64,000 bases of DNA, taken from Octopus vulgaris. Taxonomy: Eukaryota. Made by a program: the position numbers and the translations under genes. Positions 6,614-50,105 of this stretch are shown piece after piece. Under the pieces are notes generated by a model. It did no database searches and was not told the DNA's origin. It saw nothing but the letters and a program-made list of their open reading frames with translations. The stretch is from NCBI GenBank assembly GCA_951406725.2, contig OX597831.1:30070001-30134000 (forward strand), in the 5' to 3' direction. Within the stretch, counting starts at the first letter, position 1; the number at the start of each line of letters is the position of its first letter.

Positions 6614-9600
6614 CTTGAAGAAATCTCTCACAATATTTGGCACACGCGATCAGTTATTTATTATATTTCTTCTGAACCTTTCTTTTCTGAAGTGCAAGGT
6701 GTGTATAAAATATTTTTTTCTCCTCTGTTAGACTCTCACAGTTAAAATATCGTATTTACATTTATATATATACACACACACAATAAACTGTGTAGTTGTA
6801 AAAACAACAGAAAACGGAGCAAATATATAATTTTTGTTGATGCTATTGTTTTCGTTATTGAAGAATAAAAAATATATTTCTTTTAATTGTTGCGTTGTTA
6901 TTTTGTCTGTCTGTTCTATTTAAAGACGAGGGGGGCATCAGACTTTGTCGTTGTTGATAATTTAATCTTCAAGTAAAAAAATTGGCCTCTTCACACTGTG
7001 GCCTTTATCACATTATCCCTTTTTTTTTATCGTCTCCCCGACACAAAGATATGTCACACAGATACTTATATGAATGTATATAGATATAGCGAGAGTAAAA
7101 GAGAGAGATAAATATATATTTAGACAGACCAACGGGTTCGTCGTTAAATTTCTTCTTCTTCGTCGTCTTCTGAGATTTCGGTCATTCTGGGTTTATTTGT
7201 GGACAAAAACATCGACATAAACAACTTCATCGCTCTTCTATGAACACCACAACAACTGCAGCAACTCTGTAGCGCAGCTGCTTCGAGGGGGCAGGGCTTC
7301 TTCCGCTTCTTCTTCGTTTCAAAGTTGGATTTCTCTTAGTTTTTCAATGAAAGATTTTTTTTTTATGAATGGCCGGTGTAGCGCCTCTGATGTACCACTT
7401 TGACATTTATTCCGGCCTCTGTCTCTATTCTTTCTTTCTCTATTTTGATATATGTATGTATAGTTATTTCCTTATGTGTATGTATGTCTCTGTGTGTGTG
7501 TGTGTGTGTAGTATATAGACACGCCCAAACCAAAAAAAACCGCGGTGATGACGCAAACGTAAAGAAAAATAACCACTCGCTTAAATCTCCTTTCACCCGT
7601 AATTGAAATTAGTTTTCTTTGCTAACTTTTATACTCTGTAACAGTAGACACCTTATCACTTGCTAACTACATCCGGCATCAAAACACTGCTACTACTTCT
7701 ACTACAGTAACAACAACAATAACAAACCTGTTTATATATTCCAACGTGACTTTATTCAAGTTTTTAAAAAAATGCATGGTTGGTGGATCCTAGGAATTTA
7801 ACACAACTGAATTTTAAACCTCGTCTTCGGTTACTTGACGTTGATAATAAGATAGATAATAAAAGGGCGATCCTTCGGTATAGGTACCGTAAGAACATGT
7901 TTTATATGACGCATTCTGAAAGTGTTCAGTTACAAAAAATTATTTTTTAAATCTGTCGGTCAAAAGATAAAGATCTCAAAAACGTGATAAACTTTTATTA
8001 GGCGATCCTTCGGTATAGGTACCGTAAAATATATGTATATGTATATATGTTTGTCCCCCCCCCCCCAACATCGCCTGACAACCGATGCTGGTGTGTTTAC
8101 GTCCCAGTAACGTAGCGGTTCGGCAAAAGTTACCGATAGAATAAGTACTAGGCTTACAAAGAATAAGTCCTGGGGTCGATTTTCCCCTACTAAAGGCGGT
8201 GCTCCAGCATGGCCACAACCAAATGACTGAAACAAGTAAAAAAAAAAAAAAAGTCCTTCGGAATTAATATACAAAGGGGGCGAGCTGGCGAAAACGTTAG
8301 CATGCCAGGCAAAATGTTTACCGGGATTTTGTCTCTCTTTACGTTCCGAGTTCAAATTCCGCCGAGGCCGACTTTGTTCTTTATCCTTTCGGGGTGGATA
8401 AATTAAGTACCAGTTGCATCCTGGGATCGATCTAATTGACTGGCCCCTTACCCCAAAATTTCGGGCCTAATACCTTGAGCAGAAAAGATTAATAGACAAC
8501 GTCGTTAATCCTGTTTTTCAGCCTTCCTCTTTTTTTTACGTCATGAGAATTTTGCGTGGTTGAACGACGTGGTATACTAATACCGAAGGATTGCCTTGCC
8601 GAGAATAATACTTTTTTTACTCGTTTCAGTCATTTGACTGCGGCCATGCTGGAGCACCGCCTTTAGTCGAGCAAATCGACCCCAGGACTTATTCTTTGTA
8701 AGCCCAGTTCTTATTCTATCGGTCTGTTTTGCCGAACCGCTAAGTTACGGGGACGTAAACACACCAGCATCGGTCGTCAAGCAAAAGCTAGGGAGACAAA
8801 CACACACACACACACATATATATATATCACGTGACCGACCAGACCATCAGATGTTACACATCGCTGGTCACAATGCGTTCGCATTGTTTTAGCCTTCGAA
8901 TGACGCCACCCCGCTGGCTAAGCGAGCAGGCCAATATATATATACATATATACGACAGGCTTCTTTCAGTTTCCGTCTACCAAATCCACTCACAAGGCAT
9001 TGGTCGGCCCGGGGCTACAGCAGAAGACACATGCCCAAGATGCCACGCAGTGGGACTGAACCCGGAACCATGTGGTTGATTAGCAAGCTACTTACCACAC
9101 AGCCGCTCCTGATTGATTTCTTACCTTACATATCTTTCGAAACAACAAATAATTTAATCATTCTAATGACGTTTTTATAAAACAGTACCGGACCGACGAT
9201 CTGGCAAGCAGGAGAAGTGGGGATAGGAAATGTCCGGGAGCTTCGGATCTTCTGGTTTTCTAGAGACATTGAAAAAATATATATTCTTTTTATTTATCAC
9301 AGTCATTTGACTGCGACCACGCTGGAGCACTGTCTTAAAGGGTTTTTTTTTAGTCGAAGAAATCGGCCCCAGGACTTATTATTTTATTTGTAAGCCTAGT
9401 ACTTATTCTATCGGTCTCGTTTGCCGAACCGCTAATTATGGGAACGTAAACACACCAACATCGGTTGTCAAGCGATGGTGGGGAGACAAACACACACACA
9501 CATACACATATATATACGATAGGCTGCTTTCAATTTCCGTCTACCAAATCCACTCACAAGGCTTTGGTCGGCCCGTGGCTATAGAAGAAGACACTTGCCC

Positions 9601-23530: not shown

Positions 23531-26500
23531 TTACAATTTATTAATTGAACATGATTAACACAAACAATTTCCCTCTCCTCAGACACATAGAGAAATTTGC
23601 ACACGCACATAAACAGGAGTGAGAGAGAGAAAAGAAGAAATATTTGAACGCCTGAGGCCCAAATAAGCCAGCATCAACTCAGTGATGCCAAAATAGATGC
23701 ACCAAGACATCTCATACTCTAAGCAAGCCATCTATTTCAAAGAGTTAATTCACAAAATTAAAAATTGAAACAAAACGGTCGGAACCAAATCTCACCCATT
23801 GAAGACTTTGATGCTTCATAAACAGACTGAGCTTTACTTCTGTCATTAAGAATCTCTTCCATAACATCTATAGTTTCTTCTGTAATCGTTTTCCGTGACT
23901 TGATGATTTTCACTAGTTTAGCGTACAGCGCTTGTTCTGGGACTATTTTGTAAAGTTCTGGAAAATGGTAGGAATACCACTCTCTGGAGCACAACAAACA
24001 ATTATATAAACATACACACATATATATATATACATCATCTTATTAAATTACAAAAACAAGCAACAACTACAACAATATCAAATGCATGTGTCCACTTTGT
24101 TTATCAGCAGTGATGGCCAGCACGATTATAGAGCAGCTCTTTTCATTGCCAACCATTATTTTTTGTATATATCCTCATAATACTACAGAAAACTGTGTGT
24201 ATTATATGCAGGAGATATGCCCCTACCCTAAAGATTATAGTAACAGCACACAAACATGGAGTATGTTTGTCAGCAAACATTAAATGTACTTGGGTATAGA
24301 ATTCCAGGTACAAGTAGAAGAATATGCATAGCTGTTTATGTACCAAGTTTAATTCTGCCACCACAATTAAAAATATGGCTGCAGACTCAAAGACTTGGAA
24401 ATAATCAAACAATTGAATTCAATTAAAACAAGGATGAATAAACCATGTAAATCTTAACCCTTCAGCATTCAGATTACTCTGTCAAATGTAATGCTTACTT
24501 TTATTTTTAAAAAATGTTTTTTTTATTTGTTTCAGTCATTTGATTGCGGCCATGCTGGGCACCGCCTTTAGTCGAGCAAACTGACCCAAGGACTTATTTG
24601 TTGTACTTATTCTGTCGGTCTCTCTTGCCGAACCACTAAGTGACAGCGGCGTAAACACACCAGCATCAGTTGTCAAGTGATGTTGGGGGGACAAACACAG
24701 ACATACATACATACCACGGGCTTCTTTCAGTTTCCGCCTACCAAATCCACTCACAAGGCTTTAGTCGGCCCGAGGCTATAGTAGAAGACACTTGCCCAAG
24801 GTGCCATGCAGTGGGACTTAACCCAGAACCATGTGGTTCGTAAGCAGGCTACTCACCACACAGCCACTCCTACACCTGCATTATCTCATAGCTTCGTGCA
24901 ATTTGTTTATTTTCAGAATGACATTGCAAGGTATGTGAGAGAGGTCAGATCTGACAGGCTGGATATGGCCAGTTTAACCCATTAACATTTAAACCAACCA
25001 AAATATTCTACCCATTTTAAGTTCAAACCAGCCAGACCCGGACTCTCACAGCTTCCTGACAATGTTATTCTTAAAATAAAGTCATATCATCAAAATCTCT
25101 CATTTCATTGGACAGAATAACCTGACCGCTGAAGGGTTAAACCAGCCAAAATATTCTGCCTCTTTTATGTTTAAACTGGCCAGATCCAACATCTCACACC
25201 TACTCTACAATGCCACAGTAAAATAAACAATCACATCATTGAAATCGAAGTCACAAGATAAAACATAATTCAAGACAATGTGAATAAATCATCATCATCG
25301 TTTAACGTCCGTTCTCCATGCTAGCATGGGTTGGACAGTTCGACCGGGAATCTGGGAAGCCAGAAGGCTGCATCAGGCTCCGGTCTTATCTGGCAAAGTT
25401 TCTACAGCTGGATGCCCATTTGACCCAAATCTGAACACTCAAGGATTAAAGTTTTATGTGGAATGTATAATTTCTCCGTTAACCCAAAGACAAGAATGCC
25501 TGAAAGCCACAACTTCACAGCAGAATATTGAATTTAAGACTCACCTGATCCTCATGCTGAATGCATTGATGTCTTTGTCCAATTGATCTAACAGTGCAAT
25601 ACTCTGAATAATCATGTTATCAACTCGGTTGATGTTGAACTTCACCTTGGCACGAGAATAGGCATGACCAAGGCCCAACTGGGCCTTGTTCTGGGTCACA
25701 GATGTCATCCCCTGCACCATTTTGTGGAAGTGGACTCGGATACCTGGCAAATAAACGACAACAATATTGGCTTCAAATTTTGGGGAAGGGTGAAAGTTGA
25801 CTACAGTGACACCCAGTGGATCAACTGGGTCTTAATTTTAAAACCCTCAAAAAAAGATTAAAGGCAAAGTCAACCTTGGTGGAATTTCAACTTTGAATTT
25901 ACAAAAGAGATTAAATGCAGTCGTGCATTCTGCCTGGTATACTAACGATTCTGCCATCTCACTGCATTATAAATAACAATAACGACAAAGCAGAAACAGA
26001 CAAAGAAAGTATTTAGAGAAAGGATCAGAGGCAAATCTCACACGACCCTTGTTTCAACAGCCTAGTTTAGATGCTTGCAAAGAGCAAACGAAATTCTCTA
26101 AGGAATAAGAACAAATGTAAGTTCTACTTAGACCAGTTTGCTCATTGGTTGGTCAACAACTGGGTGGAGAAGAACTGGTTTGGTGTAGGACACTAAAATC
26201 AGCAACAATTACAGAACTGGTGCCATAGACATTCGGTGTCCAATATCTTTTACTTGTTTCAGTCATTAGACTGTAACCATGAAAGGGCAACACCTTGAAG
26301 AATTATAAAACCCTGGTACTTATTCGATTGGACTCTTTTGTTGAACTAATAAGTTATGAGGATAAACAGATACAAAGCCCCCAACCCCACACTAAGGGCA
26401 CTTTTGGTCAGCCTGAGGCTATAATAGAAGACACCTGCCCAGGGACTGAACCTGGAACCATTTGGTCGGGAGGCAAGCTTCTTACCAATAGAAGTACCAG

Positions 26501-29500
26501 CTTTACACACCTGTGCTGGTGTTGTGTAAAAGGACCCAGTACACTTTTTTAAGTGGCTGACATTAGGAAGGGCATCAAGCTGTAGAAACCATGGCAAAAC
26601 ACAAGGAACCAGCACAGGCCCTCTTTACACGGCACCAGCTTAGGGATCCAAGCAAGCTAAATTGTAAATTGGGGATCTATGATAGTATTTTAGATCATAA
26701 AAAGCTTTTTTGGTTTAGGTGTATTTATTGCTAGAAACAGGCTTCTTTCTCTAACGTTTTGCATATTTCAGCATGCTTCTTATTTCTTTATTACCCACAA
26801 GGGGCTAAACACAGAGGGGACAAACAAGGATAGACAAAGGGATTAAGTCGACTACATTGACCCCCCCAGTGTGTAACTGGTACTTAATTTATTGCCCCCA
26901 AAGGGATGAAAGGAAAAGTCGACCTCAGCGGAATTTGAACTCAGAACGCAACGGCAGACGAAATACCACTAAGCATTTTGCCTGGCGTGCTAACGATTCT
27001 GCCAGCTTGCAGCCTTCATTTCAGCATGTTTCTGGCCCCTGAAACACATTCTCTGAGAAAGCTCTATTTCAAACTTACACAAGCGAATGGGTGAAACACA
27101 AAATAGGAATTTCAAAAGAAGTATCCATAAAACCAGTTTCTGCCATCTCACTGCATTATAAATAACAACAATAATGACAGCAAAAACAGACAAAGAAAGT
27201 ATTTAGAGAAAGGATCACGGACAAATTTCACATAACCCTTGTTTCAACAGCCTAGTTTAGATGATTGCAAGGACCAAATGCAATTCCATGAGGAAGATCT
27301 TCTACAGCTGGAAGTTATTCCTGCTGTCAACTCTCACTTAACCATGTAGACTATGATGTCTTTGGGTGTACCCTTGTACAGACTTCACACAATGGTCGCA
27401 AATATGCATCAATGTCTTACAAGCAAGGAGGTTTGTTTGTGGGAATATTACTTTGTTCAAAAACAGGGGTGGGGGGTCGATGATATTAAGGGCATCCGAC
27501 AGTAGAAAATCTGAATCGACAAATTCTGCACGACCCATGCAAGCATGGAAAAACTGGATTTTAAGTGAGAATGACAATCACTTCAAGCAGGGGTCTTTAA
27601 TGTGGAAAGAGAGAGAGAGAGAGAGAAAAGTTCCTGCCTGAAACAATCGTCAAGATTTACATTTACACTATTTCATAGGATAAGAACAAATGTAAGTTCT
27701 ACTTAGACCAGTTTGCTCATTGGTTGGTCAACAACTGGGTGGAGAAGAACTGGTTTGGTGTAGGACACTAAAATCAGCAACAATTACGGAACTGGTGCCA
27801 TAGACATTCGGTGTCCAATATCTTTTACTTGTTTCAGTCATTAGACTGTAACCATGAAAGGGCAACACCTTGAAGAATTATAAAACCCTGGTACTTATTC
27901 GATTGGTCTCTTTTGTTGAACTACTAAGTTACAAGGGCAAACATGGATACAAAGCACCCACCCCAACACCAGGGGCTTCTTTGGTCAGCCTGAGGCTAAA
28001 GTAGAAGACACTTGCCCAGAGTGCCATGCAGCGGGACTGAACCCAGAACCACTTGGTCAGGAGGCAAGCTTCTTACCAGTTGATGTACCAGTTGAGCATT
28101 CATAATCTTGTGGGCTCGCAGGTGTTGGTGCCATGTGAACACAGCTGAGCTGGTGGTGTGTAAAAGCATCCAGCTGTAGAAACCATGGCAAAACAGACAT
28201 GGAACCATCTAACTCATTACCAGCATAGGTCCTCTTTACATGGCACCCGCTTGGGGATCCAAGCAAGCTAAATTGTAAATTGAGGATCTATGATAGTATT
28301 TTAGATCATAAAAAAACATTTTTGGTTTAGGTGTATTTATTGCTAGAAACAGGCTTCTTTCTCTAACGTTTTGCATATTTCAGCATGCTTCTTATTTATT
28401 TATTGCCCACAAGGGGCTAAACAAGGATAGACAAAGGGATTAAGTCGACTACATTGACCCCAGTGTGTAACTGTGATGAAAGGCAAAGTCGACCTTGGTG
28501 GAATTCGAACTCAGAATGTAACGGCAGACGAAATACCACTAAGCATTTTGCCTGGCATGCTAACGATTCTGCCAGTTTGCAACCTTCACTTCAGCATGTT
28601 TCTGGCCCCTGAAACACATTCTCTGAGAAAGCTCTATTGCAAACTTACACAAGTGAATGGGTGAAACACAAAATAGGAATTTCAAAAGAAGTATCCATAA
28701 AACCAGTTTCTGCCATCTCACTGCATTATAAATAACAATAATGACAGCAAAAACAGACAAAGAAAGTATTTAGAGAAAGGATCACAGACAAATTTCACAT
28801 AACCGTTGTTTCAACAGCCTAGTTTAGATGATTGCAAGGACCAAATGCAATTCCATGAGGAAGATTTTTCTACAGCTGGAAGTTATTCCTGCTGTCAACT
28901 CTCACTTAACCATGTAGACTGTGATGTCTTTGGGTGTACCCTTGTCCAGACTTCACACAATGGTCGCAAATATGCATCAATGTCTTACCAGCAAGGAGGT
29001 TTGTTTGTGGAAATATTACTTTGTTCAAAAACAGGGGTGGGGGGTCGATGATATTAAGGGCATCCGACAGTAGAAAATCTGAATCGACAAATTCTGCACG
29101 ACCAATGCAAGCATGGAAAAACTGGGTATTAAGTGATAATGGCAATGACAAACACTTCAAGTAGGGGCCTTTAATGTGGAAAGAGAGAGAGAGAAAAAAA
29201 AGTTCCTGCCTGAAACAATCATCAAGGTTTACATTTACACCATTTCATGGGATAAGAACAAATGTAAGTTCTACTTAGACCAGTTTGCTCATTGGTTGGT
29301 CAACAACTGGGTGGAGAAGAACTGGTTTGGTGTAGGATGCTAAAATCAGCAACAATTACAGAACTGGTGCCATAGACATTCGGTGTCCAATATCTTTTAC
29401 CCGTCTCAGTCGTCAGACTGTAACCATGCAAGGGCAGCACCTTGAAGAATTATAAAACCCTGGTACTTATTCGATTGGTCTCTTTTGTTGAACTACTAAG

Positions 29501-32500
29501 TTACAAGGGCAAACACAGATGCAAAGCTCCCACCCCAACACCAGGGTCTTCTTTGGTCAGCCTGAGGCTAAAGTAGAAGACACTTGCCCAGGGTGCCATG
29601 CAGCGGAACTGAACGTGGAACCATTTGGTCAGAGGCAAGCTTCTTACCAATAGATGTACCAGCCGAGCATTCATAATCTTGTGGGCTCGCAGGTGTTGGT
29701 GCCATGTGAACACAGCTGAGCTGGTGGTGTGTAAAAGCATCCAGCTGTAGAAACCATGGCGAAACAGACATGGAACCATACATGGAACCATCTAACTCAT
29801 GCCAGCATGGAACCAGCAAAGGTCCTCTTTACATGGCATCCGCTTGGGGATCCAAGCAAGCTAAATTGTAAATTGGGGATCTATGATAGTATTTTAGATC
29901 ATAAAAAAATTTTTTGGTTTAGGTGTATTTATTGCTAGAAACAGGCTTCTTTCTCTAACGTTTTACATATTTCAGTACGCTTCTTATTTCTTTATTGCCC
30001 ACAAGGGGCTAAACACAGAGGGGACAAAGGGATTAAGTCGACTACATTGACCCCCCAGTGTGTAACTGGTACATAATTTATTGATCCCAAAAGGATGAAA
30101 GGCAAAGTCGACCTTGGTGGAATTTGAACTCAGAATGTTACGGCAGACAAAATACCATTAAGCATTTTGCCCGGCGTGCTATCGATTTTGCCAGCTCTCC
30201 GCCCTCATTTCAGCATGTTTCTGGCCCCGGAAACCCATTCTCTGAGAAAGCTCTATTTCAAACTTACACAAGCGAATGGGTGAAACACAAAATAGGAATT
30301 TCAAAAGAAGTATCCATAAAACCAGTTTCTGCCATCTCACTGCATTATAAATAACAATAATGACAGCAGAAACAGACAAAGAAAGTATTTAGAGAAAGGA
30401 TCAGAGGCAAATCTCACACGACCCCTGTTTCAACAGCCTAGTTTAGATGCTTGCAAGGACCAAATGCAATGAGGAAGATTTTCTACAGCTGGAAGTTATT
30501 CCTGCTGTCAACTCTCACTTAACCATGTAGACTGTGATGTCTTTGGGTGTACCCATGTCCAGACTTCACACAATGGTCACAAATATGCATCAATGTCTTA
30601 CCAGCAAGGAGGTTTGTTTTTGGAAATATTACTTTGTTCAAAAACAGGGGTGGGGGGTCGATGATATTAAGGGCATCCGACAGTAGAAAATCTGAATCGA
30701 CAAATTCTGCACGACCCATGAAAGCATGGAAAAACTGGGTATTAAATGATAATGACAATGACAAACACTTCAAGCAGGGGTCTTTAATGTGGAAGAGAGA
30801 GAGAGAAAAAAAAGTTCCCGTCTGAAACAATCGTCAAGATTTACATTTACACCATTTCATGGGATAAGAACAAATGTAAGTTCTACTTAGACCAGTTTGC
30901 TCATTGGTTGGTCAACAACTGGGTGGAGAAGAACTGGTTTGGTGTAGGACGCTAAAATCAGCAACAATTACAGAACTGGTGCCATAGACATTCGGTGTCC
31001 AATATCTTTTACCCGTCTCAGTCGTCAGACCGTAACCATGCAAGGGCAGCACCTTGAAGAATTATAAAACCCTGGTACTTATTGGATTGGTCTCTTTTGT
31101 TGAACTACTAAGTTACAAGGGCAAACACGGATACAAAGCTCTCACCCCAACACCAGGGTCTTCTTTGGTCAGCCTGAGGCTAAAGTAGAAGACACTTGCT
31201 CAGGGTGCTGTGCAGCAGGACTGAACCTGGAACCATTTGGTCAGGAGGCATGCTTCTTACCAATAGATGTACCAGCCGAGCATTCATAATCTTGTGGGCT
31301 CGCAGGTGTTGGTGCCATGCGAACACACCTGAGCTGGTGGTGTGTAAAAGCATCCAGCTGTAGAAACCATGGCCAAACAGACATGGAACCAGCAAAGGTC
31401 CTCTTTACCTGGCACCCGCTTGAAGATCCAAGCAAGCTAAATTGTAAATTGAGGATCTATGATAGTATATTAGATCCTAAAAAAAAAAATTGGGGATTTT
31501 GGTGTATTTATTGCCAGAAACAGGCTTCTAAGCATTTTGCCCAGCTTGCCACCTTCATTTCAGCATGTTCTCTGAGAAAGCTCTTTGGCAAACTTACACA
31601 AGTGAATGGGTGAAACACAAAATAAGAATTTCAAAAAGAGAATCTATAAAACCAGTTTTTCAAGCACCAAATGGTAATAGGGGCCTATAGGTAAAAGATG
31701 AATGAGAGCACCTAATGTAGATGGAAAGAAAAAGAGAGAAAGCATCTTACCTCTGATTATTTCTGGAATGGCTCCAGTGTGGACACAAGAAATATTCAAA
31801 CTGTTTTCTTCAGAAATGGCAGACCCTAACTTGGAATCGCCCACCCCAAGAAGCGATTTCACCTTTTTCTTGGACATTGGAACATTGCTTTCGATGAAAA
31901 CCCGAAGATTCTCATGAAGAATACCTGGTTAACAAAATAAAAAAAAAATAAAAAAGTCATTAACAGCTGGCACTAAAAACATTAACATTTCTGGCTCCAT
32001 CCTTACCAGAAGTTGCTCCTAGTTTTAGGACACAAACTTGCAATTTCAACCCTCTAGCTCTCACATTACCCTGCCAAGCTTATTTATTTATATTGGTTTT
32101 AACCCTTCCATTACCACATTTATTTTGAGATGCTCTGTGTTTCTTTCAATTAATTAAAAATATAACAAAGAATTTAGTAAAATAACTTAGTTATCATTAA
32201 GCTTGTGTTAGGAACATAAATTTTGACTAAGGTTTGGTGGAAGATTTTAATTCAAAACTTATGCAAATAAGACATTTGTACTCAGTCAGAGCCAGTTTGG
32301 TAACGAAAGGGTTAATTAATCATGCATTTATCTCATAACTTCAAAATTTCAATGATGTGATGGTTTATTTTCAGGACATGGTAGAGTAGGTGTGAGAAGT
32401 AGGATCTGGTCAGTTTCAACATAAAATAGGATATTTGTGCTAGATATGGCTGATTTAAATGTCAAAAGGATTAAAGTAACCTAAATTAAAGGCTTCCATT

Positions 32501-35500
32501 GAAATTTCACATCAATTAACCCTTTTGTTACCATATTTCTTTCTGTTGAGATGCTCTTTGTTTCTTTCAATTAATTTTTAAATACAACGAAGAATTCGTA
32601 AAATAATTTAGTGTATCATTAAGCAAGTGTTAGGAACATAAATTGTGACTAAGGTTTGGTGGAAGATTTTAATTCAGAACTTTTGAAAACAAGACATTTG
32701 TACTACAGAGCCAGAGGCAGTTTCAGGCGGGTTGGTATCAAAAGGGTTAATGTTCCAAACACCAGCTTGATAACAAAGTTATTTTACTAAATTCACTGAA
32801 ACAAAGGCAGTGCCTTTTAACAGAAATATGGTAACAAAAGGGATAATGACAAAATGATTGCACTAAATCCTTAATTATCCTATTGATTAACCCATTAGCA
32901 TTCAGACTACTGCCAAATTTAGTACTTGTTAATTCACATAGTTTTGAATTAACCATGCAGTATCTTGTAACTTCGAGATGTGATTGTATATTTGTAGAAT
33001 GACATTGTAGGCTAGGTGTAAGAGATCAGATTTTGACAGTCTGAACCTAAAACAGATAGAGTATTTGGACTGGATATGACCAGTTTAAATGCTAAAGGAT
33101 TAATATCAACAGAGTCAATAAAACATTTCAGGATTCAAATTGTGGCTCATTTAGGGTCATAGATTTACTAGTTTTATGACATTCTCTAGCCTAAAAACAA
33201 TGACAATTACAACATATGTCATACATATTATCATAAGTTTAATAGATATATACTACAGTTTTATGACAGTTCCCTGTCATAAGTGACAATCACAACACAT
33301 TATACAAAAATGAGTCATTTCAGTTTTATGATATTCTTATAATGCACCCCAACCCCCCCAAAACCTGTCACCCTCCACTTCACACCAATTATGACATCAT
33401 CATCGTTTAACGTCTGTTTTCTGTGCTAGCACGGGTTGGACAGATCGACCGGGGTCTGGGAAGCCAGAAGGCTGCACCAGGCTCCAGTCTGATCTGGCAG
33501 AGTTTTAACAGCTGGATGCCCTTCCTAATGCCAACCACTCCGTGAGTGTAGTGGGTGCTTTTTACATGCCACGGGCACAGGTGCCAGGGGAGGCTGGCAG
33601 CGGCCATGATCGGTTGGTGCGTTTTACGTGCCACCAGCACAGAAGCCAGTCAAGGCGGGTTAAAAATCATCACATACTGCAAATGTCCTAGCCACTACCT
33701 TCCAACAGTCCATTGTTACTGCACATTCTCTCAAATTGATGTTACAACCAGAAATAAAAACTTAGGATGTTGAGAGAGAGAGAGAGAGAGAGGGAGGGAG
33801 AGATATTAGATGTAAATTCTACTTAGACCAGTTTGCTCATTGGTTGGTCAACAACTGGGTGGAGAAGAATTAGTTTGGTGTAGGACACTAAAATCAGCAA
33901 CAGTCACAGAACTGGTGCCATAGACATTCAGAGTCCAGCAGTAATGAAAAACGGCACAGGATTACTGCAACTAAATCACAATGAAACAGTTGTACACTAG
34001 AGTGACCTGAATTTAGTCACACACTAGTATCATACCACACTTTACACTCTATTCTATTCGCTAAACCATCACCAGTAAAACTGCAGGTGCAAAGTACTAC
34101 ACACCACCTCAAGCAACGGAACAACTTGTATATTATGAAGAAACTTACTAAAACTAACAAAAACGTAGAACTTGTTATCTCATAACGGTGTACTAAAATA
34201 TATTAATTAAAAACCCTAATATATTTCGCTTATAGCCAAGTATAATACATTAAAGTCAGTTACGCATGCGCGATTTTTCATCGAAAAAGTGTGGTGGCAA
34301 GTCGTACATTTACTTCCAGCCGAACGTAAGAAGCAAAAAGGATTGTTTTCACCATATTTTCTGGCATACAAATCTAAGCATTATGTAGCATAAACACTTA
34401 AGCATTATCACTCTCTTTTCAAATCCTGCTGCGTTTCACAAGGAATTTTCAGCCCTCCAAAGTCATCTCGGTTTACAAGCCAACTTAGCTTTTTTCTTTA
34501 CTATAAATTTTAGTCTGAAGAATTTGACTTGTATGCAGTAAGATATGGTAACATGAAATCCACCTTTTAACTAATACTGCAGCATAACTTACAACTACAA
34601 TACAACTAGTCTGGAGTGACACAGACGGACGACAGTTTAGCACTCATGTGCAAGTATGGCTGTGATAAGACATTCGCCTTCTTGTCAAACCATCTTCAAC
34701 GTATTTGTAATTAATTCTTCAATATTCACATGAATTTGAATTAATCATTGATTATCTCACAGCTTCGAGATTTTGATGATGTGATGGTTTATTTTTTAGA
34801 ATGACATTGTAGGGTAGGATCCAGCCTGCTTGAAAACGAAGCAGAAAATATTTGGGTTGGATAAGGCTGGTTTAAATGCAAAGGGTCAAAGAATACAAGA
34901 CAACCACATAGAATGGACAAAATATTCACAACCAGCATCTCACTGGTTGTCACCTAGATCATTTTATCCAGGAGGATTGTTAACACACCTCCACAATTAT
35001 ATACACTGGGGTCTATGTATCTTTAGCGAGGACTCAAACATTATTCTCATATGCCTACGAGGTCAAGTCGAAGTGGGGAGAGATAGATGGTTGTGGCCAG
35101 TAAAATAGAGAGATTATTGATGTAAATTCTACTTAGACCAGTTTGTGTAATGGACACAACTGGGTGGAGAAGAATAGTTTGGTGTAGGACACTAAAATCA
35201 GCAACAATTACAAAACTGGTGCCATAGACATTTAATGTTCAATATCGAATTATTATTAACAGCCTGATCGTGGCACAGCATTAATGCCACTAATTCACAC
35301 TGTTATGCTGTAACATCATTTTTACACTCCAGTCGAGACAGTTTATAACTCTTATTCAAAGTGTTGCAACAGAAACAAAACTGGTTTTATAACAAAAACT
35401 GAAATTGGGAAAGAATTGAAGAGAATCAATAATTTGTCAAGAAATCCAAAGGCCTAGTCTTCAGCAGCATCATTATTATTATTGTTTCCCAGTTTTACAT

Positions 35501-38500
35501 ATTGGATAGTTTGACAAAATCTGATAAATTGGAAGACTATTTTGAACTCCAGCGCCTGCTCTGGCAAGGATCCTACAGCTGTGAGAATGACATTTCAGGG
35601 TAAGTGTGAGAGCCCATATCTTGCCAGTCTGAACAGGTAGAATATTTCAGCCAGATATAACTGGTTTAAATGCTAAAGTGTCACATGACTGGGTAGAAAG
35701 ATTCTAGGAACAGACTAAATGAAGAAGTAAAACAAAGACACGTGTGCTGCAGTGATTCTCAACCATTTGTTGGCCTACGGACCTATTTCTCTGATTTTCA
35801 CTTAGTGGGACGAGACCCTCATAGCCATTCCATGTCTGAAGAGTCTAATGTTTTTATCATTAAATATTAGGAATTGTGAAAGCACATGGTCCAGTGATTA
35901 AAGTGCTGGGCTCAGCCACGACCTAGTGACATTTTGTTGATAGTCAACCCATAATGATTTCGGCAACCCTTCGTTTTAACTCGACAAAACCAAAACAAAA
36001 ACTTGGTTGTTTCCATGACAACTGCTAAAATGGGAGGAGGAGAAGAAAAAAAAGGTAATGGGTTGTGTGTCTGTTCTGTTTTTATGTGTTGTGGAATATA
36101 GATATAACGAAATTATGCCAGCAAAAAAGCCTTAAGGCCTAGCAAGGCATAAAATTTCATTCTGTTTTCTGCTTGGAAATTTGCGGATTTTACATACACA
36201 TGAAGCAGGTAAGAATATGCAAGGCTTTTTGTTGGCATAATTTTGTTATATTTATATTCCACAACACATAATTACATAAAAACAGAACACGCATGCACAC
36301 ACAATCCACTAGCTTCCTTCTCCCCCCGTCCATTTCAGCAACTGTCATGAAGATATCCAAAGTGAATTGTCGAGGTGTCACAGTTTGTTTTGTTTTGTTG
36401 AGTTAAAACGAAGGATTGCCATGATTTCTTTACTGAAAGGTCTGGCCTCGGCAAGAACATTCAGCTATAGAAACCATGCCAAAACTGCCAGTAGAGCTTG
36501 GAGCAGTTCTCTGGCTTGCCAGCATGGAAGACAGAAATTAAATGATGAAAATTACAAGAACAAAAAAAAAAAAAAAACAACAAACAAAATGATAACTTAC
36601 CTTCTGATAAACTATTTATGTTGTCTAGGGCATTGGTGCCACTTTTGAAAGGAGAAAAAGCTACAAATTTGACAATGGCATTAAACTTGCCCAAATCATG
36701 CACAGCTGCTTCCACTTGTGGCAGTAGCATAGACATTTCTTCAAACTCTGCAACATGAAACAAGGTGTAGCCGCAGGCATGTTCATAGAGAACATGCAGT
36801 ATCTCAGCCTAAAATTGAACCCAAAACGAAGAGAATCAGTAAAAAACAAGGCAAACGATTGCAGTAAATGAATCTAATTTAGCAGAAATTACATGAGATG
36901 ATTATTTAATCCATTAGCATTCAGATTACTCTGTCAAAGGAATGTTTAGAATTAATCATTTATTAACTTGTAGCTTTGAGATTTTGATGAGGCAACTGTT
37001 ATTATTAACCTATTATTTTTTGGCATTTACAGAAAATTTCAGCGAATTTGTGGTGCACACACGAGAATTCATACGATTGTGAAGAAAAAAAAAAAGCCAC
37101 ACTCCACTATTTCTTTCAAATCAAATTCCAAAATACTCGTAATCTACACCATTAGAAAGGTATCTGCTGAAAATTTCACTAAAAAATATTCATTTTTTCC
37201 AGAATTATGAGGAAACAATCTGTAGTTATGCCTGATGCTCTCACCAATCGTTAAGTTTCGTTTATTCCCCACCCCGCACCACCTAATTTTATCACTCAAG
37301 TCATTTCTTTACAATAATTAGTCCTGTATTATTATTTACCCCACAACTTCTAAGAGAAAGGAGATATCACCCGAAACATCGCCAGTGACCACATATGTCT
37401 GATCAAAGGGAGACACGGACCGAATCACTAAATTTGCTTGCGTCTTAATAAAAAAAAAGTTTTAAGTCGTCATAAATTTTATTTATGTGTAAATTATTTA
37501 TTCTAAGTATAAATAATAATCGCAAAAAAATTTTTACAAACACGAACTCATTCATTCTATGTATTTGTATGACCCCATTTCTGTGTTTGATCCGTAGCGA
37601 TCTTAAAGATTTTATCACTAAAAAGATTCGAAGCAAATTTTCTTTGAGCATGGCCATCCAGAAAGCATAGCGAGCTGCGGTTTGCCCAAGGCTAGATTCT
37701 AGGGACATCGTATAAACGGGGTCATGTACCGATCAGACACCAATATTTCAGATCGTTTCTTCTCTCTCTCTCCCTTTAAATATTGTTGATGTCCCACGAG
37801 CAGCCTACGACTTTTTCTATCCCCAAAAGATATTTTAAGCCCAGTATTTACAGGCTATTATATATAGATTTCGAGATCCACTGATTCAAAAACAAGTAGA
37901 AAAAAAAAAAAAAAAGATAGGAGTTATTGAGATAATCACAATGTATAGATATGTTTAGATTATTTGTAATGTAGAACTACGAAGCACTCGTGCTTCTGTG
38001 ACAACACGTGCGTGAACTTAATACACAATTACACGCGCGACTGTATCTTGTATTAGTATAATCTATCCAAAGTTTTCAAGCGGCCAGGCCGCAGTCCAAG
38101 TGTATTTTATTATATTGCGCCACGTAATCTCCGTCCCTCAGTTTTCGTAGGTAATGAATTTCACGTTATAAGTCTCTGCCAATAGCACAGAATATAGTTG
38201 CATGATCTACATTCTCTGAGGGTGTGGAAGTCTTTAAAATATACTGACCTATGGTTCGATACAATATCAGAGGACATCAAAATCTGAGTACACATTACAG
38301 AACAAAAACTGCGGATCGATGTCTACGAACTCCCCCCAAAATTTCAGACTTTGTGCCTAAAGTAGATATATTTATTCGTATCAACCCTAAAACCCCTAAA
38401 TGTCGTTTAAATAGGATACCCCAACTCCCTCGTTTTAGCTACTTCAGATCATATTTTTCCATGTCACTCACTAAATATTAATTTACTTCATATTCTAAAT

Positions 38501-44791: not shown

Positions 44792-44864
44792 ACCCGGCTA
44801 GCTCAGTCGGTAGAGCACGAGACTCTTAATCTCGGGGTCGTGGGTTCGAGCCCCACGTTGGGTG
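44792..44864 (+). tRNA. tRNA-Lys(CTT), A1:U72 variant
   Basis: 73-nt cloverleaf with CTT anticodon, A and B boxes, TATAAA at about -30 and an oligo-T terminator. Confidence 0.93.
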
Positions 44865-45782
44865 GATTTTTTTTTGTTCACATTCTTTTAACATTCACTA
44901 CTCCATGTTTATGTGATCACACTTTGGTCACATGTAACAATACCTCTGACCACTATTGTTCTGTTTTCATAAAATCTCATCCTATTTTTCTTCGGTGTTT
45001 TAACAAATCCCGCCAATATTTATTATTTCCCGCCACATGTAAGGGAGATAACAATATTGTAACAAACAAGTTTTGTCCCTTATAAACTTTGTTTATTTTT
45101 TTAGTTTTTCATGCTTGATAACATTTCTTCTGTTCGTCTTAATTTCTAGAATTTAGAAACCCCGTCTTTTCCTTAAAATGCTTACAATTGGCATTTTTTT
45201 CCTGTTTTTCATGGGATTACTATTGTTTTTAGTGCTGTAGGCTTTGAGTATATGCAGGGAGTTTTGATTTGGTTGTATTAACTGTCCTGGCAGACACGTT
45301 AGCGCGCCGGGCGAAATGCTTGTCGGTATTTCGTCTGTCGTTATGTTCTGAGTTCAAATTCCGCCGAGGTCGACTTTGCCTTTCATCCTTTCGGGGTCGA
45401 TAAATAAAGTACCAGTTTCGCACTGGGGTCGATGTAATCGACTTAATCCGTTTGTCTGTCCTTGTTTGTCCCCTCTATGTTTATCCCCTTGTGGGCAATA
45501 AAGAAATATATAATACGTGTATAGTAATCAATGGCGTAATGTCCTGCGTAGCCTATATGAAATAACTACAGTACCCAATAGAGCAATGTTGTTGTTGTGT
45601 GTGTGTATGTGTGAGTGTGTGTGAATGTGTGTGTGTGAATGTGTGTGAGTGTATGTGTATGTGTGTGTGTGAGTATGTATTGTGTCTGTGTGTATGAGTG
45701 TGTGTGTGAATGAATGTGAGTGTGAGTGAATGTGTATGTGTGAGTATATGTGTGTGTGTGTATGAGAGGGAGAGAGAGAGGG

Positions 45783-46433
45783 TATCATCATCATCATCAT
45801 CATCATCGTTTAACGTCCGCTTTCCATGCTAGCATGGATTGAACGGTTCAACTGCGGTCTGGCAAGCCCGAAGGCTGCACCAGGCCAGTCAGATCTGGCA
45901 GTGTTTCTACAGCTGGATGCCCTTCCTAACGCCAACCACTCCGAGAGTGTAGTGGGTGATTTTATGTGCCACCGACACAGGTGCCAGACGAGGCTGGCAG
46001 ACGGCCACGCTCGGATGGTGTTTTTTATGTCCCACCGACACAGGTGCCAGATGAGGCTGGCGAACGGCCACGATCGGATGGTGTTTGTTACGTGCCCACA
46101 GCACGGAGGCCAGTCGATGCGGTACTGGCAACGGTCCTGTTCGGATGGTTTTCTTATGTACCACCGGCACTGGTACCACAAGGATACAAATTCCATTGAT
46201 GTTCATCTATTTTGATTTGGTTTGATTTGATTTGATTTGATTTGATTTTCACTTGCCTCAACAGGTCTTCACAAGTGTCACAAGCAGGAATGTATGCACA
46301 GGTGGACTGACTATGCCCCAGGTAGGGGCCACGGGTTATGGCTTCACTAGTCTTGCCGGGTCTTCTCACGCACAGCATACTTCCATAGGTCTCGGTCTCT
46401 AGTCATTTCCATGGTGAGACCTAACTTTCGAAG
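45783..46433 (-). mobile_element. Short 3' fragment of the same RTE family (ORF end, 3' UTR with ~62-bp internal repeats, (GAT)n)
   Basis: Matches 52983-53580. Similar tail-only pieces at ~13340-13525, 15061-15210, 16578-16780, 25289-25417, 33394-33660 and 43757-43918. Confidence 0.85.
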
Positions 46434-46768
46434 AGTATGTGTGTAATATATCTTTTATCTTTTACTTGTTTCAGTCATTAGGCTGTGGCCATGCTGGGGC
46501 ACCGTCTGGAAGAATTTTCAATCGAATGTATCGACCCCAGTACTTATTTTTAAAAGCCTGGTACTTATTCTATTGGACTCATCTACTGAACTGCTAGATT
46601 ACGGGGTCGTAACCAGCACCGGTTGTCAAGCAGTGTGGGAGACAAACTCAGGTACACACACTTATTCTTTGTAAGCCTAGTACCTATTCAATCAGTCTCT
46701 TTTGCCGAACTGCTAAATTACAGGAATGTAAACACCAACATCGGGTGGGGACAAACACAGACACTCAA

Positions 46769-46854
<86 letters not shown>

Positions 46855-47246
46855 ACGTTGAGCTTCTTTCAGTTTCCATCTACCAAATTCACTCACGAGG
46901 CTTTGGTCAACCTGAAACTATAGTTGTAGACACTTGCCCAAGGTGCCATGCAATGGGACTGAACCCAAAACTGTGTGCTTGGTAAGCAAACTACTTACCA
47001 CACAGCCACTCCCTATCCAGATTATAATTTCAGATTTAAACCAATAATTAAAGAAAAAAGGTTTATACTGAATGTTATCAATAATATCTAGTGGAAATAG
47101 GGGGTGCTGCAGTTCAGCAGTGACAATACACAAGCCGCCACTGGTGTGGGGAGATTGATATAGACAAATATGTGTATGTATGTGTGTGAATATATATATA
47201 CACATATATTGTTTAAATATTTCTGATTATTTTTAAAATATTTCAA

Positions 47247-47345
47247 TTAACCTGAAGATTGACTGTAACCATAACTCGAATTATTAATTGAATTTAAATT
47301 ATTGTTATTCGAATTGGTACAGCCATGAAACGATCGTAGTGTTTT
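47247..47345 (+). ncRNA. Type I hammerhead-ribozyme-like motif (degenerate), copy 1
   Basis: CTGAAGA (47252-47258), stem II TGACTGTAACC/GGTACAGCCA, GAAA (47327-47330), palindromic CGATCG, GTA triplet; stem I is weak. Confidence 0.55.
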
Positions 47346-48006
47346 ACTCTTTATCTTTTATTAAACTTTTGATATATAAAATAAAATTTGAAAAAAAAAT
47401 ATATAAAAATAAATAAATAAATTAATTAATTAATAAAATAATATATAAATATAAAAATATACATACATACATATATATATATATTTGTATATATATATAT
47501 ATAAAATTTATAAGTTTTAATTATTTAAATAATTTTTTATTTTTAACTTTTATATTTTAAATTAATTTTATGTATTGGCTTATGTTTTTCACTGTTTGAT
47601 TTGCCTAATAGTGGTTTTATCTCTAATTTAATATAATATAATATATTTATACTATAAAATCGGATTTAATCCTAAATCTCATTTTTCCCTGTAAGTTTGG
47701 ATTTATTTCCTAATATTATTATTATATACACACACATATATATATATATATATACCACTCTTGGAGTGGTTGGTGTTAGGAAGGGCATCCATCTGTACAA
47801 AATCTGCCAGATCAGATTGGAACCTGGCGCAGCCATCTGGTTCGCCAGTCCTCAGTCAAATCGTCCAACCCGTGCTAGCATGGAAAGCAGACGTTAAACG
47901 ATGATGATGATGATGATGATGATATATATATATTTATTTATATATATATATACATGTGTATATGTGTGTGTGTGTGTGTGTATACATTTATACATATATA
48001 TATGTG

Positions 48007-48051
<45 letters not shown>

Positions 48052-48351
48052 TTACTTTGATATATATATATATATATACACACATTTAAATTAAAAAACA
48101 CACACATAAATGTACATGTATCGATATGCAGCTCTCTTTCCATATATGTATGTATGTGTGTGTGTGTATACATATATGTACATATATATCTATAGCACAT
48201 TTATAAAACAAAATATATATACAGTTTTCCTATAAGCATTATACACATATTATCATTTATTACAATTATAAAATTAAAAAAGCAACATGTCATTAACCGC
48301 ATTGATATCTTTAAGCAATATAAAGCTTAAAATATACCTATTTACCAGTCA

Positions 48352-48424
48352 ACCCGGCTAGCTCAGTCGGTAGAGCACGAGACTCTTAATCTCGGGGTCG
48401 TGGGTTCGAGCCCCACGTTGGGTG
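48352..48424 (+). tRNA. tRNA-Lys(CTT), A1:U72 variant
   Basis: Identical to the 44792 copy; T-run terminator. Confidence 0.93.
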
Positions 48425-49568
48425 GATTTTTTTTGTTCACATTCTTTTAACATTCACTACTCCATGTTTATGTGATCATACTTTGGTCACATGTAACAAT
48501 ACCTCTCACCACTATTGTTCTGTTTTCAAAAAATCTCATCCTTTTTTTCTTCGGTGTTTTAACAAATCCCGCCTTAATTTATTATTTCCCGCCACATGTA
48601 AGGGAGATAACAATATTGTAACAAACAAGTTACGTCCCTTATAAACTTTGTTTTTGTTTTTTTTTTACTTTTTCATGCTTGATAACATTTCTTCTGTTCG
48701 TCTAAATTTCTAGAATTTAGAAACCCCGTCTTTTCCTTAAAATGCTTACAATTGGCATTTTTTCCCCCTGTTTTTCATGGGATTACTATTGTTTTTAGTG
48801 CTGTAGGCTTTGAGTATATGCAGGGAGTTTTGATTTGGTTATCAATGGCGTAATGTCCTGGGTAGCGTATATGAAATAACTACAGTACCCATTAGAGCAA
48901 TGTTGTAGTTGTTGTTGTGTGTATATGTGTGAGTGTGTGTGTGAGTGTATGTGTGTGTGTGAATGTGTGTGAGTGTATGTATGTATATATGTATGTGTGT
49001 CTGTGTGAATGTGTGTGTGAGTGTGTGTGAATGTATGTGAGTGTGAGTACCCATTAGAGCAATGTTGTTGTTATTGTGTGTGAGTGTGTGTGTGTATGTG
49101 TGTGTGAATGTGTGTGAGTGTATGTATGTATATATGTATGTGTGTCTGTGAATGTGTGTCAGTGTGTGTGTGAATGGATGTGAGTATGAGTGAATGTGTA
49201 TGTGTGTGTGTGTGTATGAGAGGGAGAGAGAGAGAGAGTATGTGTGTAATATATCTTTTACTTGTTTCAGTCAGACTGTGGCCATGCTGGGGCACCGTCT
49301 GGAAGAATTTTCAATCGAATGTATCGACCCCAGTACTTATTTTTAAAAGCCTGGTACTTATTCTATTGGACTCATCTACCGAACCGCTAGATTACGGGGA
49401 CGTAAACATACCAGCACCGGTTGTCAAGCAGTGTGGGAGACAAACTCAGGTACACACACACTTATTCTTTGTAAGCCTAGTACCTATTCTATCAGTCTCT
49501 TTTGCCGAACTGCTAAATTACGGGAATGTAAACACCAACATCGGGTGGGGACAAACACAGACACTCAA

Positions 49569-49615
<47 letters not shown>

Positions 49616-50006
49616 CGTTGAGCTTCTTTCAGTTTCCATCTACCAAATTCACTCACAAGGCTTTGGTCAACCTGAAACTATAGTTGTAGACACTTGCCCA
49701 AGGTGCCATGCAATGGGACTGAACCCAAAACTGTGTGCTTGGTAAGCAAACTACTTACCACACAGCCACTCCCTATCCAGATTATAATTTCAGATTTAAA
49801 CCAATAATTAAAGAAAAAAGGTTTATACTGAATGTTATCAATAATATCTAGTGGAAATAGGGGGTGCTGCAGTTCAGCAGTGACAATACACAAGCTGCCA
49901 CTGGTGTGGGGAGATTGATATAGACAAATATGTGTATGTATGTGTGTGAATATATATATAGACATATATTGTTTAAATATTTCTGATTATTTTTAAAATA
50001 TTTCAA

Positions 50007-50105
50007 TTAACCTGAAGATTGACTGTAACCATAACTCGAATTATTAATTGAATTTAAATTATTGTTATTCGAATTGGTACAGCCATGAAACGATCGTAGT
50101 GTTTT
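50007..50105 (+). ncRNA. Type I hammerhead-like motif, copy 2
   Basis: Identical to the 47247 copy. Confidence 0.55.

What the first reader, a model, noticed from the sequence alone, without database searches (positions are those of the whole stretch)
26113..35241. Six-copy amplification of one H/ACA snoRNA inside two NOP56 introns
Seen: a ~130-nt hairpin-ACACCA-hairpin-ACA unit, four times in intron 3 and twice in intron 2. The intron 2 copies sit in unrelated flanks and show a compensatory G-C/A-U change; one has a rewritten but still paired apical stem. Both argue for selection on the RNA. The 3' pocket (CUCCAC / U-CUAAG, 14 nt from ACA) fits 18S CUUAG-U-Psi-G-GUGGAG, the site of human Psi1347 (SNORA4) and yeast Psi1290 (snR83), with one U-U mismatch. 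Known: vertebrates typically have one snoRNA per intron and host SNORA4 in EIF4A2. Inference: host switch plus a polycistronic intronic cluster that needs endonucleolytic or extra splicing for release. The hairpin 1 target is unassigned.
Basis: partly seen in the sequence, partly recalled or inferred. Interest (0 to 1): 0.75.

Follow-up and report, generated by a model that had tools for sequence, protein, structure and literature searches.

The report
Six-copy snoRNA cluster in octopus NOP56
Two introns of an octopus NOP56 gene hold six copies of a small hairpin RNA gene that likely guides a well-known chemical change in ribosomal RNA; four copies are passengers of a recent local duplication, and such clusters are already known in flies.

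Summary
The six copies are real: four in intron 3 and two in intron 2 of an Octopus NOP56 gene. Each has hairpin-H box-hairpin-ACA anatomy. The 3' pocket's best match in 12 of 13 proxy animal rDNAs is the 18S site that is Psi1347 in human and Psi1290 in yeast; which of two adjacent uridines is modified cannot be resolved. Corrections: the four intron 3 copies ride in a ~1.6-kb tandem duplication; the intron 2 copies share a 31-nt flank remnant; the compensatory change is one event. Better evidence of selection: 96 stem, pocket and box bases are identical between the intron 2 copies. Release need not involve a cut: trimming could give snoRNA-capped long RNAs. New lead: the 5' pocket best fits a 28S uridine that is 2'-O-methylated in human and Xenopus, with U6 Psi31 as rival. 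Expression, modification and octopus rRNA were not observed. Intronic H/ACA clusters and host switching are known. New member of a known kind.

The parts
36601..36808 (-). NOP56 exon 2 (NOP5NT domain); the start Met comes from an upstream exon that was not mapped
   Evidence: splice to exon 3 seen in RNA-type contigs
35272..35302 (-). 31-nt block upstream of c1, 26/31 identical to the block upstream of c2; remnant of an old local duplication
35118..35241 (-). H/ACA snoRNA copy c1 (intron 2), most diverged, rewritten 3' apical stem
33953..33983 (-). 31-nt block upstream of c2
33808..33937 (-). H/ACA snoRNA copy c2 (intron 2), 8-10 differences from the array copies
31751..31924 (-). NOP56 exon 3
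25949..31658 (.). tandem array of about 3.6 units of 1.57-1.61 kb, rich in dispersed-repeat fragments, one snoRNA copy per unit
30872..31001 (-). copy c3 (intron 3); one mismatch in the 5' lower stem
29260..29389 (-). copy c4 (intron 3); two changes break the 5' lower stem, likely decaying
27688..27817 (-). copy c5 (intron 3), intact
26113..26242 (-). copy c6 (intron 3), intact; H box 26181-26186, ACA box 26116-26118; 369 nt from the 3' splice site
25545..25743 (-). NOP56 exon 4; 100% identical at protein level to Octopus vulgaris and O. sinensis NOP56

Best explanation
This is a six-copy family of a hairpin-H box-hairpin-ACA sequence in introns 2 and 3 of octopus NOP56 that is likely a box H/ACA snoRNA and is predicted to guide pseudouridylation of the conserved 18S site known as human Psi1347 / yeast Psi1290. 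Shown: anatomy, copy number in this assembly, host gene, complementarity (5 + 6 base pairs) to that site in proxy animal rRNAs. Inferred history: an old short local duplication gave c1 and c2; a c2-like copy moved into intron 3; a recent ~1.6-kb tandem duplication then carried it to four copies as a passenger, and c4 (less so c3) is decaying. Inferred biogenesis: ordinary splicing, debranching and exonuclease trimming; a lariat on which one copy has assembled its proteins gives one mature RNA, and one on which several have assembled gives a snoRNA-capped long RNA that needs an internal cut to free monomers. Inferred, weaker (about 40%): the 5' pocket guides a 28S uridine just 3' of the sarcin-ricin loop.
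For: Folds and boxes. My own H/ACA heuristic over window 13900-37900, minus strand, returned 7 candidates: 4 of the 6 copies (not c1, c4), the intron 4 snoRNA and 2 others. 3' pocket: top site in 12 of 13 rDNA loci scanned (13 of 102 held); shuffled guides reached that score 8 of 120 times at any site and 3 of 120 at sites shared by two rRNAs; the site is a mapped pseudouridine in human and Xenopus (PMC6984369 supplement) and yeast (PMC9715914). Between c1 and c2, four blocks of 19+31+20+26 = 96 nt covering pocket strands, stems and boxes carry no substitution, while the shared flank block is 84% identical and changes sit in apical loops and the 5' end. Helices 2-4 are 100% paired in all six copies. 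Not a dispersed element: bins over the copies have depths of 64-145 in DNA run X3 against 1e4-1e7 over neighbouring repeats; the contig bearing the array's letters has depth 211 against 59-81 for single-copy contigs (X3) and 23 against 3-7 (X8), which fits 3-4 copies (the tool warns that depth is a poor copy measure).
Against: No Rfam family at gathering score; best weak hits are SCARNA24 (21.8 bits, cut-off 70) and SNORA79 (15.8, cut-off 55), both U6 guides, and not SNORA4. The two registers of the 3' pocket are equal in energy (-16.1 vs -16.4 kcal/mol) and my scan ranked the U before the known Psi first (31 vs 26); it made the same shift on the intron 4 control, so its register is unreliable. 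Target tests used unnamed animal rDNAs, not octopus rRNA. Covariation is not beyond shuffles. Within the array the snoRNA is less variable than the rest (3 of 130 vs 160 of 1384 columns) but another 130-column tile is as quiet, so this is weak. Gene conversion could also explain identity between c1 and c2. Predicted guides with good-looking pockets can be inactive (PMC8522698 passages).
Confidence: 0.75

Rival explanations
1. One reading: a selected polycistronic cluster from which every copy is released by endonuclease cleavage or extra splicing, raising guide dosage.
For: Intronic H/ACA clusters exist in Drosophila (PMC3089462 passage); splicing-independent endonucleolytic release is described (PMC10557570 passages); c1, c2, c5, c6 look intact; each array unit has a pyrimidine-rich AG acceptor-like site.
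Against: The four intron 3 copies are explained by one segmental duplication; c3 and c4 carry stem-breaking changes; no strong donor site and no inverted repeat at E<0.01 in 4 of 4 spacers between copies; RNA-type contigs join exon 2 directly to exon 3.
Confidence: 0.3
2. The main products are H/ACA-ended long RNAs (SLERT-like sno-lncRNAs): about 1,434 nt from c1 to c2 and up to 4,889 nt from c3 to c6.
For: Two snoRNAs in one intron yield sno-lncRNAs by exonuclease trimming, including the H/ACA case SLERT (PMC11028025 passages; PMC10557570 section 13); spans; both intron 2 copies are conserved; no obvious cut or splice signal between them.
Against: Spacers are largely repeat-derived and show no sign of their own conservation; conservation of both pockets fits guide function; the examples in the passages read are mammalian.
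Confidence: 0.25
3. The 5' hairpin guides U6 snRNA Psi31 (SNORA79/ACA65-like), making this a dual snRNA/rRNA guide.
For: The 5' hairpin's 3' strand matches the SNORA79 consensus strand and can form 7-8 Watson-Crick pairs with U6 24-31 (by eye, U6 as printed in bioRxiv 10.1101/2021.08.01.454689); ACA65 guides U6 Psi31; dual snRNA/28S guides exist in Drosophila; a UGAG, CAB-like (motif recalled), lies in the 3' apex of c2-c6.
Against: The other strand gives only 3 pairs with U6 before a mismatch and lacks the SNORA79 element, against 9-10 pairs with the 28S site in all three sequence variants; c1 has lost the UGAG; the MFE puts part of it in a stem.
Confidence: 0.2
4. Non-functional relics or a transposon-borne repeat, or an assembly artefact.
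For: The array is full of dispersed-repeat fragments; no Rfam family; c4 looks broken.
Against: Low read depth over the unit against adjacent repeats; array units differ by 5-10%, so are not duplicated reads; invariant pockets and boxes between c1 and c2; match to a known Psi site.
Confidence: 0.07

Closest known systems
Human/Xenopus SNORA4 (ACA4) and yeast snR83
   Same: H/ACA guide for 18S U1347 / U1290; the 3' pocket here fits the same site.
   Different: No Rfam similarity; human host is EIF4A2 (PMC8759569), here NOP56; single copy in human and Xenopus tables; second targets differ (yeast U1415, Xenopus 28S-4323) and neither was among the top sites of the 5' pocket.
Xenopus SNORA67
   Same: Also guides the 1347-equivalent site through antisense-element shuffling.
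   Different: Different family; shows that target identity does not establish orthology.
Drosophila intronic H/ACA snoRNA clusters
   Same: Several H/ACA genes in one intron of an invertebrate (PMC3089462 passage; clusters). snoRNA:Psi18S-1377b exists; that this lettered family targets the same site is recalled and untested.
   Different: Here spacers are 1.2-1.5 kb and four copies come from a segmental duplication with repeat-rich flanks.
sno-lncRNAs, SLERT; SNORD86 in human NOP56
   Same: Two snoRNAs in one intron; H/ACA ends in SLERT; NOP56 is a snoRNA host in human.
   Different: SLERT arises by exon skipping between two different snoRNAs; SNORD86 is C/D type and autoregulatory; no long product was observed here.
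SNORA79 (ACA65) and SCARNA24 (ACA12)
   Same: Best, but sub-threshold, Rfam matches; shared lower stem and one pocket strand.
   Different: Their U6-pairing elements are otherwise absent; scores far below cut-off.

Membership tests
Box H/ACA snoRNA | Two hairpins separated by an ANANNA hinge | tested here: met
   5 of 6 copies fold so, c4 does not; definition
Box H/ACA snoRNA | ACA three bases from the 3' end | tested here: inconclusive
   ACA is invariant and similarity between copies ends a few bases later; the RNA's real end was not observed
Box H/ACA snoRNA | Bipartite pocket complementary to a target uridine about 14 nt from the box | tested here: met
   3' pocket, 5+6 pairs on proxy 18S, 13-14 nt from ACA
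Box H/ACA snoRNA | Intronic, sense to a ribosome-biogenesis host | tested here: met
   NOP56 introns 2 and 3
Box H/ACA snoRNA | Expressed, bound by dyskerin, directs pseudouridylation | not testable with these tools
   only contigs were available
SNORA4 / snR83 family | Guides 18S U1347/U1290 | tested here: inconclusive
   site matches, register unresolved
SNORA4 / snR83 family | Sequence-structure match to the Rfam model | tested here: not met
   absent at gathering and at E up to 10
SNORA4 / snR83 family | Host gene EIF4A2 | tested here: not met
   host is NOP56; human host
SNORA79 / scaRNA-type U6 guide | Both pocket strands pair around U6 U31 or U86 | tested here: not met
   one strand only (by eye)
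SNORA79 / scaRNA-type U6 guide | CAB box in apical loops | tested here: inconclusive
   UGAG in the 3' apex of 5 of 6 copies, partly stem-paired, none in the 5' apex; motif recalled
sno-lncRNA | Two snoRNAs in one intron | tested here: met
sno-lncRNA | Stable long RNA with snoRNA ends | not testable with these tools
   no raw RNA reads offered
Dispersed transposable element | High genomic copy number | tested here: not met
   depth over the unit is 2-4 orders of magnitude below adjacent repeats; six copies in the window, all in NOP56

The most novel reading that the evidence does not exclude
Octopus NOP56 makes H/ACA-capped long RNAs (1.4 kb and up to 4.9 kb) from its own introns, an invertebrate counterpart of SLERT, and the same guide pseudouridylates the 28S uridine that vertebrates 2'-O-methylate (Um4620), i.e. 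a switch of modification chemistry at one ribosomal nucleotide, guided from inside the gene for a methylation-complex protein.
Probability: 0.12. Interest if true: 0.65.

Novelty: new member of a known kind. Interest (0 to 1): 0.3.

Why it matters
If right, it adds a cephalopod guide for a pseudouridine conserved from yeast to human, in a family Rfam cannot see. Its practical value is as a natural test case: six copies with diagnostic letters in two introns let one read directly from small-RNA data how an animal handles several H/ACA snoRNAs in one intron (monomer from one copy, cut polycistron, or capped long RNA). The 5' pocket gives a testable prediction of Psi at a position that is methylated in vertebrates. 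None of this overturns known biology.

Tried and rejected
No whole genome is held, so genome-wide copy number was judged only from run depth. No RNA holder was listed; intronic RNA-type contigs over c1 (depth 7.4) and c2 (3.4) say nothing about a mature RNA. A second read-laying on 23700-26330 gave no result, so variation in other species labels and depth over c6 remain unseen. My idea that the 5' pocket targets SNORA81's site (U4636, also hosted in EIF4A2) was rejected: the matched uridine is Um4620 (old 4590), guided by SNORD72. The 5' pocket does not fit the 18S helix-39/40 region in the 16 sequences printed (by eye). Viral contigs gave no rRNA (0 matches) and no U6 (10 matches, 0 of 10 with an Rfam family). 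No C/D snoRNA candidate with a 10-nt rRNA match was found on the minus strand of 13900-37900. Earlier findings of this scan: nothing. Literature: (snoRNA, octopus, cephalopod, pseudouridylation; 22 papers, 19 listed, seen as listing only) showed no title or abstract start on cephalopod guide snoRNAs; searches likewise; one search returned 0. Subscription papers on the Drosophila clusters were not available, and bioRxiv supplements are closed (the host-gene table of 10.64898/2026.05.21.726978 could bear on the Psi18S-1377 comparison). PMC8609340 (passages) added nothing.
Full report
Setting. The window is from an octopus: the exon at 25545-25743 translates to a peptide 100% identical to NOP56 of Octopus vulgaris and O. 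sinensis, and those proteins map across 36808-13995 on the minus strand. RNA-type contigs of both such runs laid join exon 2 to exon 3.

Observation. Six copies exist, at the coordinates listed under parts, and a permissive search finds no seventh in the window. Five of six fold as hairpin-hinge-hairpin-tail; c4 does not, because two changes break its 5' lower stem. The H box and ACA are invariant. Three points differ from the finding. First, c3-c6 are parts of a tandem array (about 25949-31658) of 1.57-1.61-kb units, 91-97% alike and rich in dispersed repeats; they differ from each other by 1-3 bases. Second, c1 and c2 share a 31-nt block upstream, 26/31 identical, unique in the window, reached by 0 of 1000 random windows, so they come from an old short duplication. 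Third, the G-C/A-U change is a single event, 1 of 28 pairs, and 96 of 500 shuffles reach it.

Selection and copy number. The better argument is the pattern between c1 and c2: four blocks totalling 96 nt that cover pocket strands, stems and boxes have no substitution, whereas the shared flank block is 84% identical and differences collect in the apical loops and the 5' end. At 16% divergence, 96 unchanged bases would be very unlikely (inference; gene conversion is the caveat). Within the array the snoRNA has 3 of 130 variable columns against 160 of 1384, but variation is patchy and another tile is equally quiet. In DNA-type runs the unit has low depth next to repeats that are hundreds to hundreds of thousands of times deeper, and the contig bearing the array's letters is about 3-4 times deeper than single-copy contigs (211 vs 59-81 in X3; 23 vs 3-7 in X8). 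This argues against a transposon and loosely for a real array; the tool cautions that contig depth is not a copy number.

3' pocket. Octopus rRNA could not be obtained. As proxies I fetched 102 loci by a 28S motif; 21 of them also hold the 18S site (22 matches; 20 with G and 2 with C after the two uridines), and Rfam confirmed full 18S, 5.8S and 28S in the two used for the null test. With my own scoring, the 18S site ranked first in 12 of 13 loci scanned; shuffled guides reached the score 8 of 120 times at any site and 3 of 120 at shared sites. The second uridine of this site is marked as Psi in human and Xenopus 18S (PMC6984369 supplement); ACA4 modifies U1347, equal to yeast U1290 guided by snR83 (PMC9715914 passages; table in PMC5699541).

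5' pocket. The best rRNA site, rank 1-3 in 13 of 13 loci for all three sequence variants, is a 28S uridine just 3' of the sarcin-ricin loop, with 9-10 pairs on one side and 4 (two G-U) on the other. The loci were chosen by this motif, so its presence is circular; the fair control is 5 of 120 shuffled guides reaching the score at any site. The variants in c1, c2 and the array all keep the pairing, but they are transitions that also keep intramolecular pairs, so this is weak. The uridine is Um4590/4620 in human, guided by SNORD72 in human and Xenopus (PMC6984369 supplement part 3 and table rows; PMC11550049 table), not SNORA81's U4636. A rival is U6 Psi31: Rfam's weak hits are the U6 guides SCARNA24 and SNORA79 (targets in PMC7960923 table), and one strand pairs 7-8 bases with U6 (by eye), but the other gives three. 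I put the 28S site at about 40%, U6 at 20%, an unseen or no target at 40%.

Mechanism. Shown: anatomy, position, complementarity to proxies. Inferred: co-transcription with NOP56, splicing, debranching and trimming to protein-protected ends (PMC11028025 section 3). With more than one copy per intron, trimming yields either one monomer per lariat or a long RNA capped by the outermost assembled copies: 1,434 nt for c1-c2, 4,889 nt for c3-c6. Freeing all copies would need an internal cut, a route that exists (PMC10557570 passages); I found no strong donor and no long inverted repeat in 4 of 4 spacers, though each array unit has an acceptor-like site. Nothing here shows which route is used.

Comparison and novelty. 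It works like SNORA4/snR83 at the 3' pocket but cannot be filed in that family: no Rfam match, another host, and guide elements for this very site move between families in Xenopus. Movement of snoRNAs between introns and hosts by recombination, segmental duplication and retrotransposition is described as usual (PMC6984369 passages). One snoRNA per intron is the predominant animal rule, but intronic H/ACA clusters are described for Drosophila (PMC3089462 passage) and NOP56 hosts snoRNAs in human. My searches (listings only) showed no report of this octopus RNA; the library lacks most subscription papers. All papers were seen as passages, named sections or supplement rows, none whole.

Verdict. 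A real, probably functional H/ACA snoRNA family, new as an annotation, ordinary as a kind. The six-fold count mostly reflects a passive recent duplication. Interest 0.3; the bold reading (capped long RNAs plus a Um-to-Psi switch) has about 12% probability and would merit 0.65.

Noticed in passing
window 24261-24400 (-), NOP56 intron 4: A second, single-copy H/ACA snoRNA candidate (fold z -3.9; weak Rfam SNORA41 hit, 31.5 bits). Its 5' pocket forms 6+6 pairs around the 18S site that is Psi1244 in human, the SNORA36 target, not SNORA41's U1643; 3' pocket unassigned.
   Followed up: partly
window 44792-58063: Five tRNA genes with a UUU anticodon (Lys), four on + and one on -, in duplicated segments of about 2.8-3.5 kb: tandem segmental duplication of small RNA genes is common in this region.
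   Followed up: partly
window 4052-6649 (-): Intronless 865-aa open frame with two ion-transport domains (Pfam Ion_trans), two-pore-channel-like by architecture (my reading), downstream of NOP56.
   Followed up: partly
window 35272-35302 and 33953-33983 (-): 31-nt block kept upstream of both intron 2 copies while the bases between it and the snoRNA have diverged; absent from the array copies; remnant or processing signal.
   Followed up: partly
window 35962-36420: Nested inverted repeats (52 nt at 92%, 38 nt at 92%) near the 5' end of intron 2, able to form a long stem in the pre-mRNA; MITE-like.
   Followed up: no
window 33988-34125 (-): Two-hairpin stretch with H-like and ACA motifs just upstream of c2, flagged by my heuristic; no pocket-like loops tested, probably chance.
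   Followed up: no
window 61614-63418: Complex satellite of 32-, 24-, 36- and 12-nt units.
   Followed up: no
L004 104-4450: A long insertion with an open-frame-like, reverse-transcriptase-like stretch (by eye) interrupting a eukaryotic 28S gene, inside a bacterial MAG: a site-specific rDNA retroelement and host contamination.
   Followed up: no
L001 62-373: Group I intron in a eukaryotic 28S fragment within a bacterial MAG.
   Followed up: no
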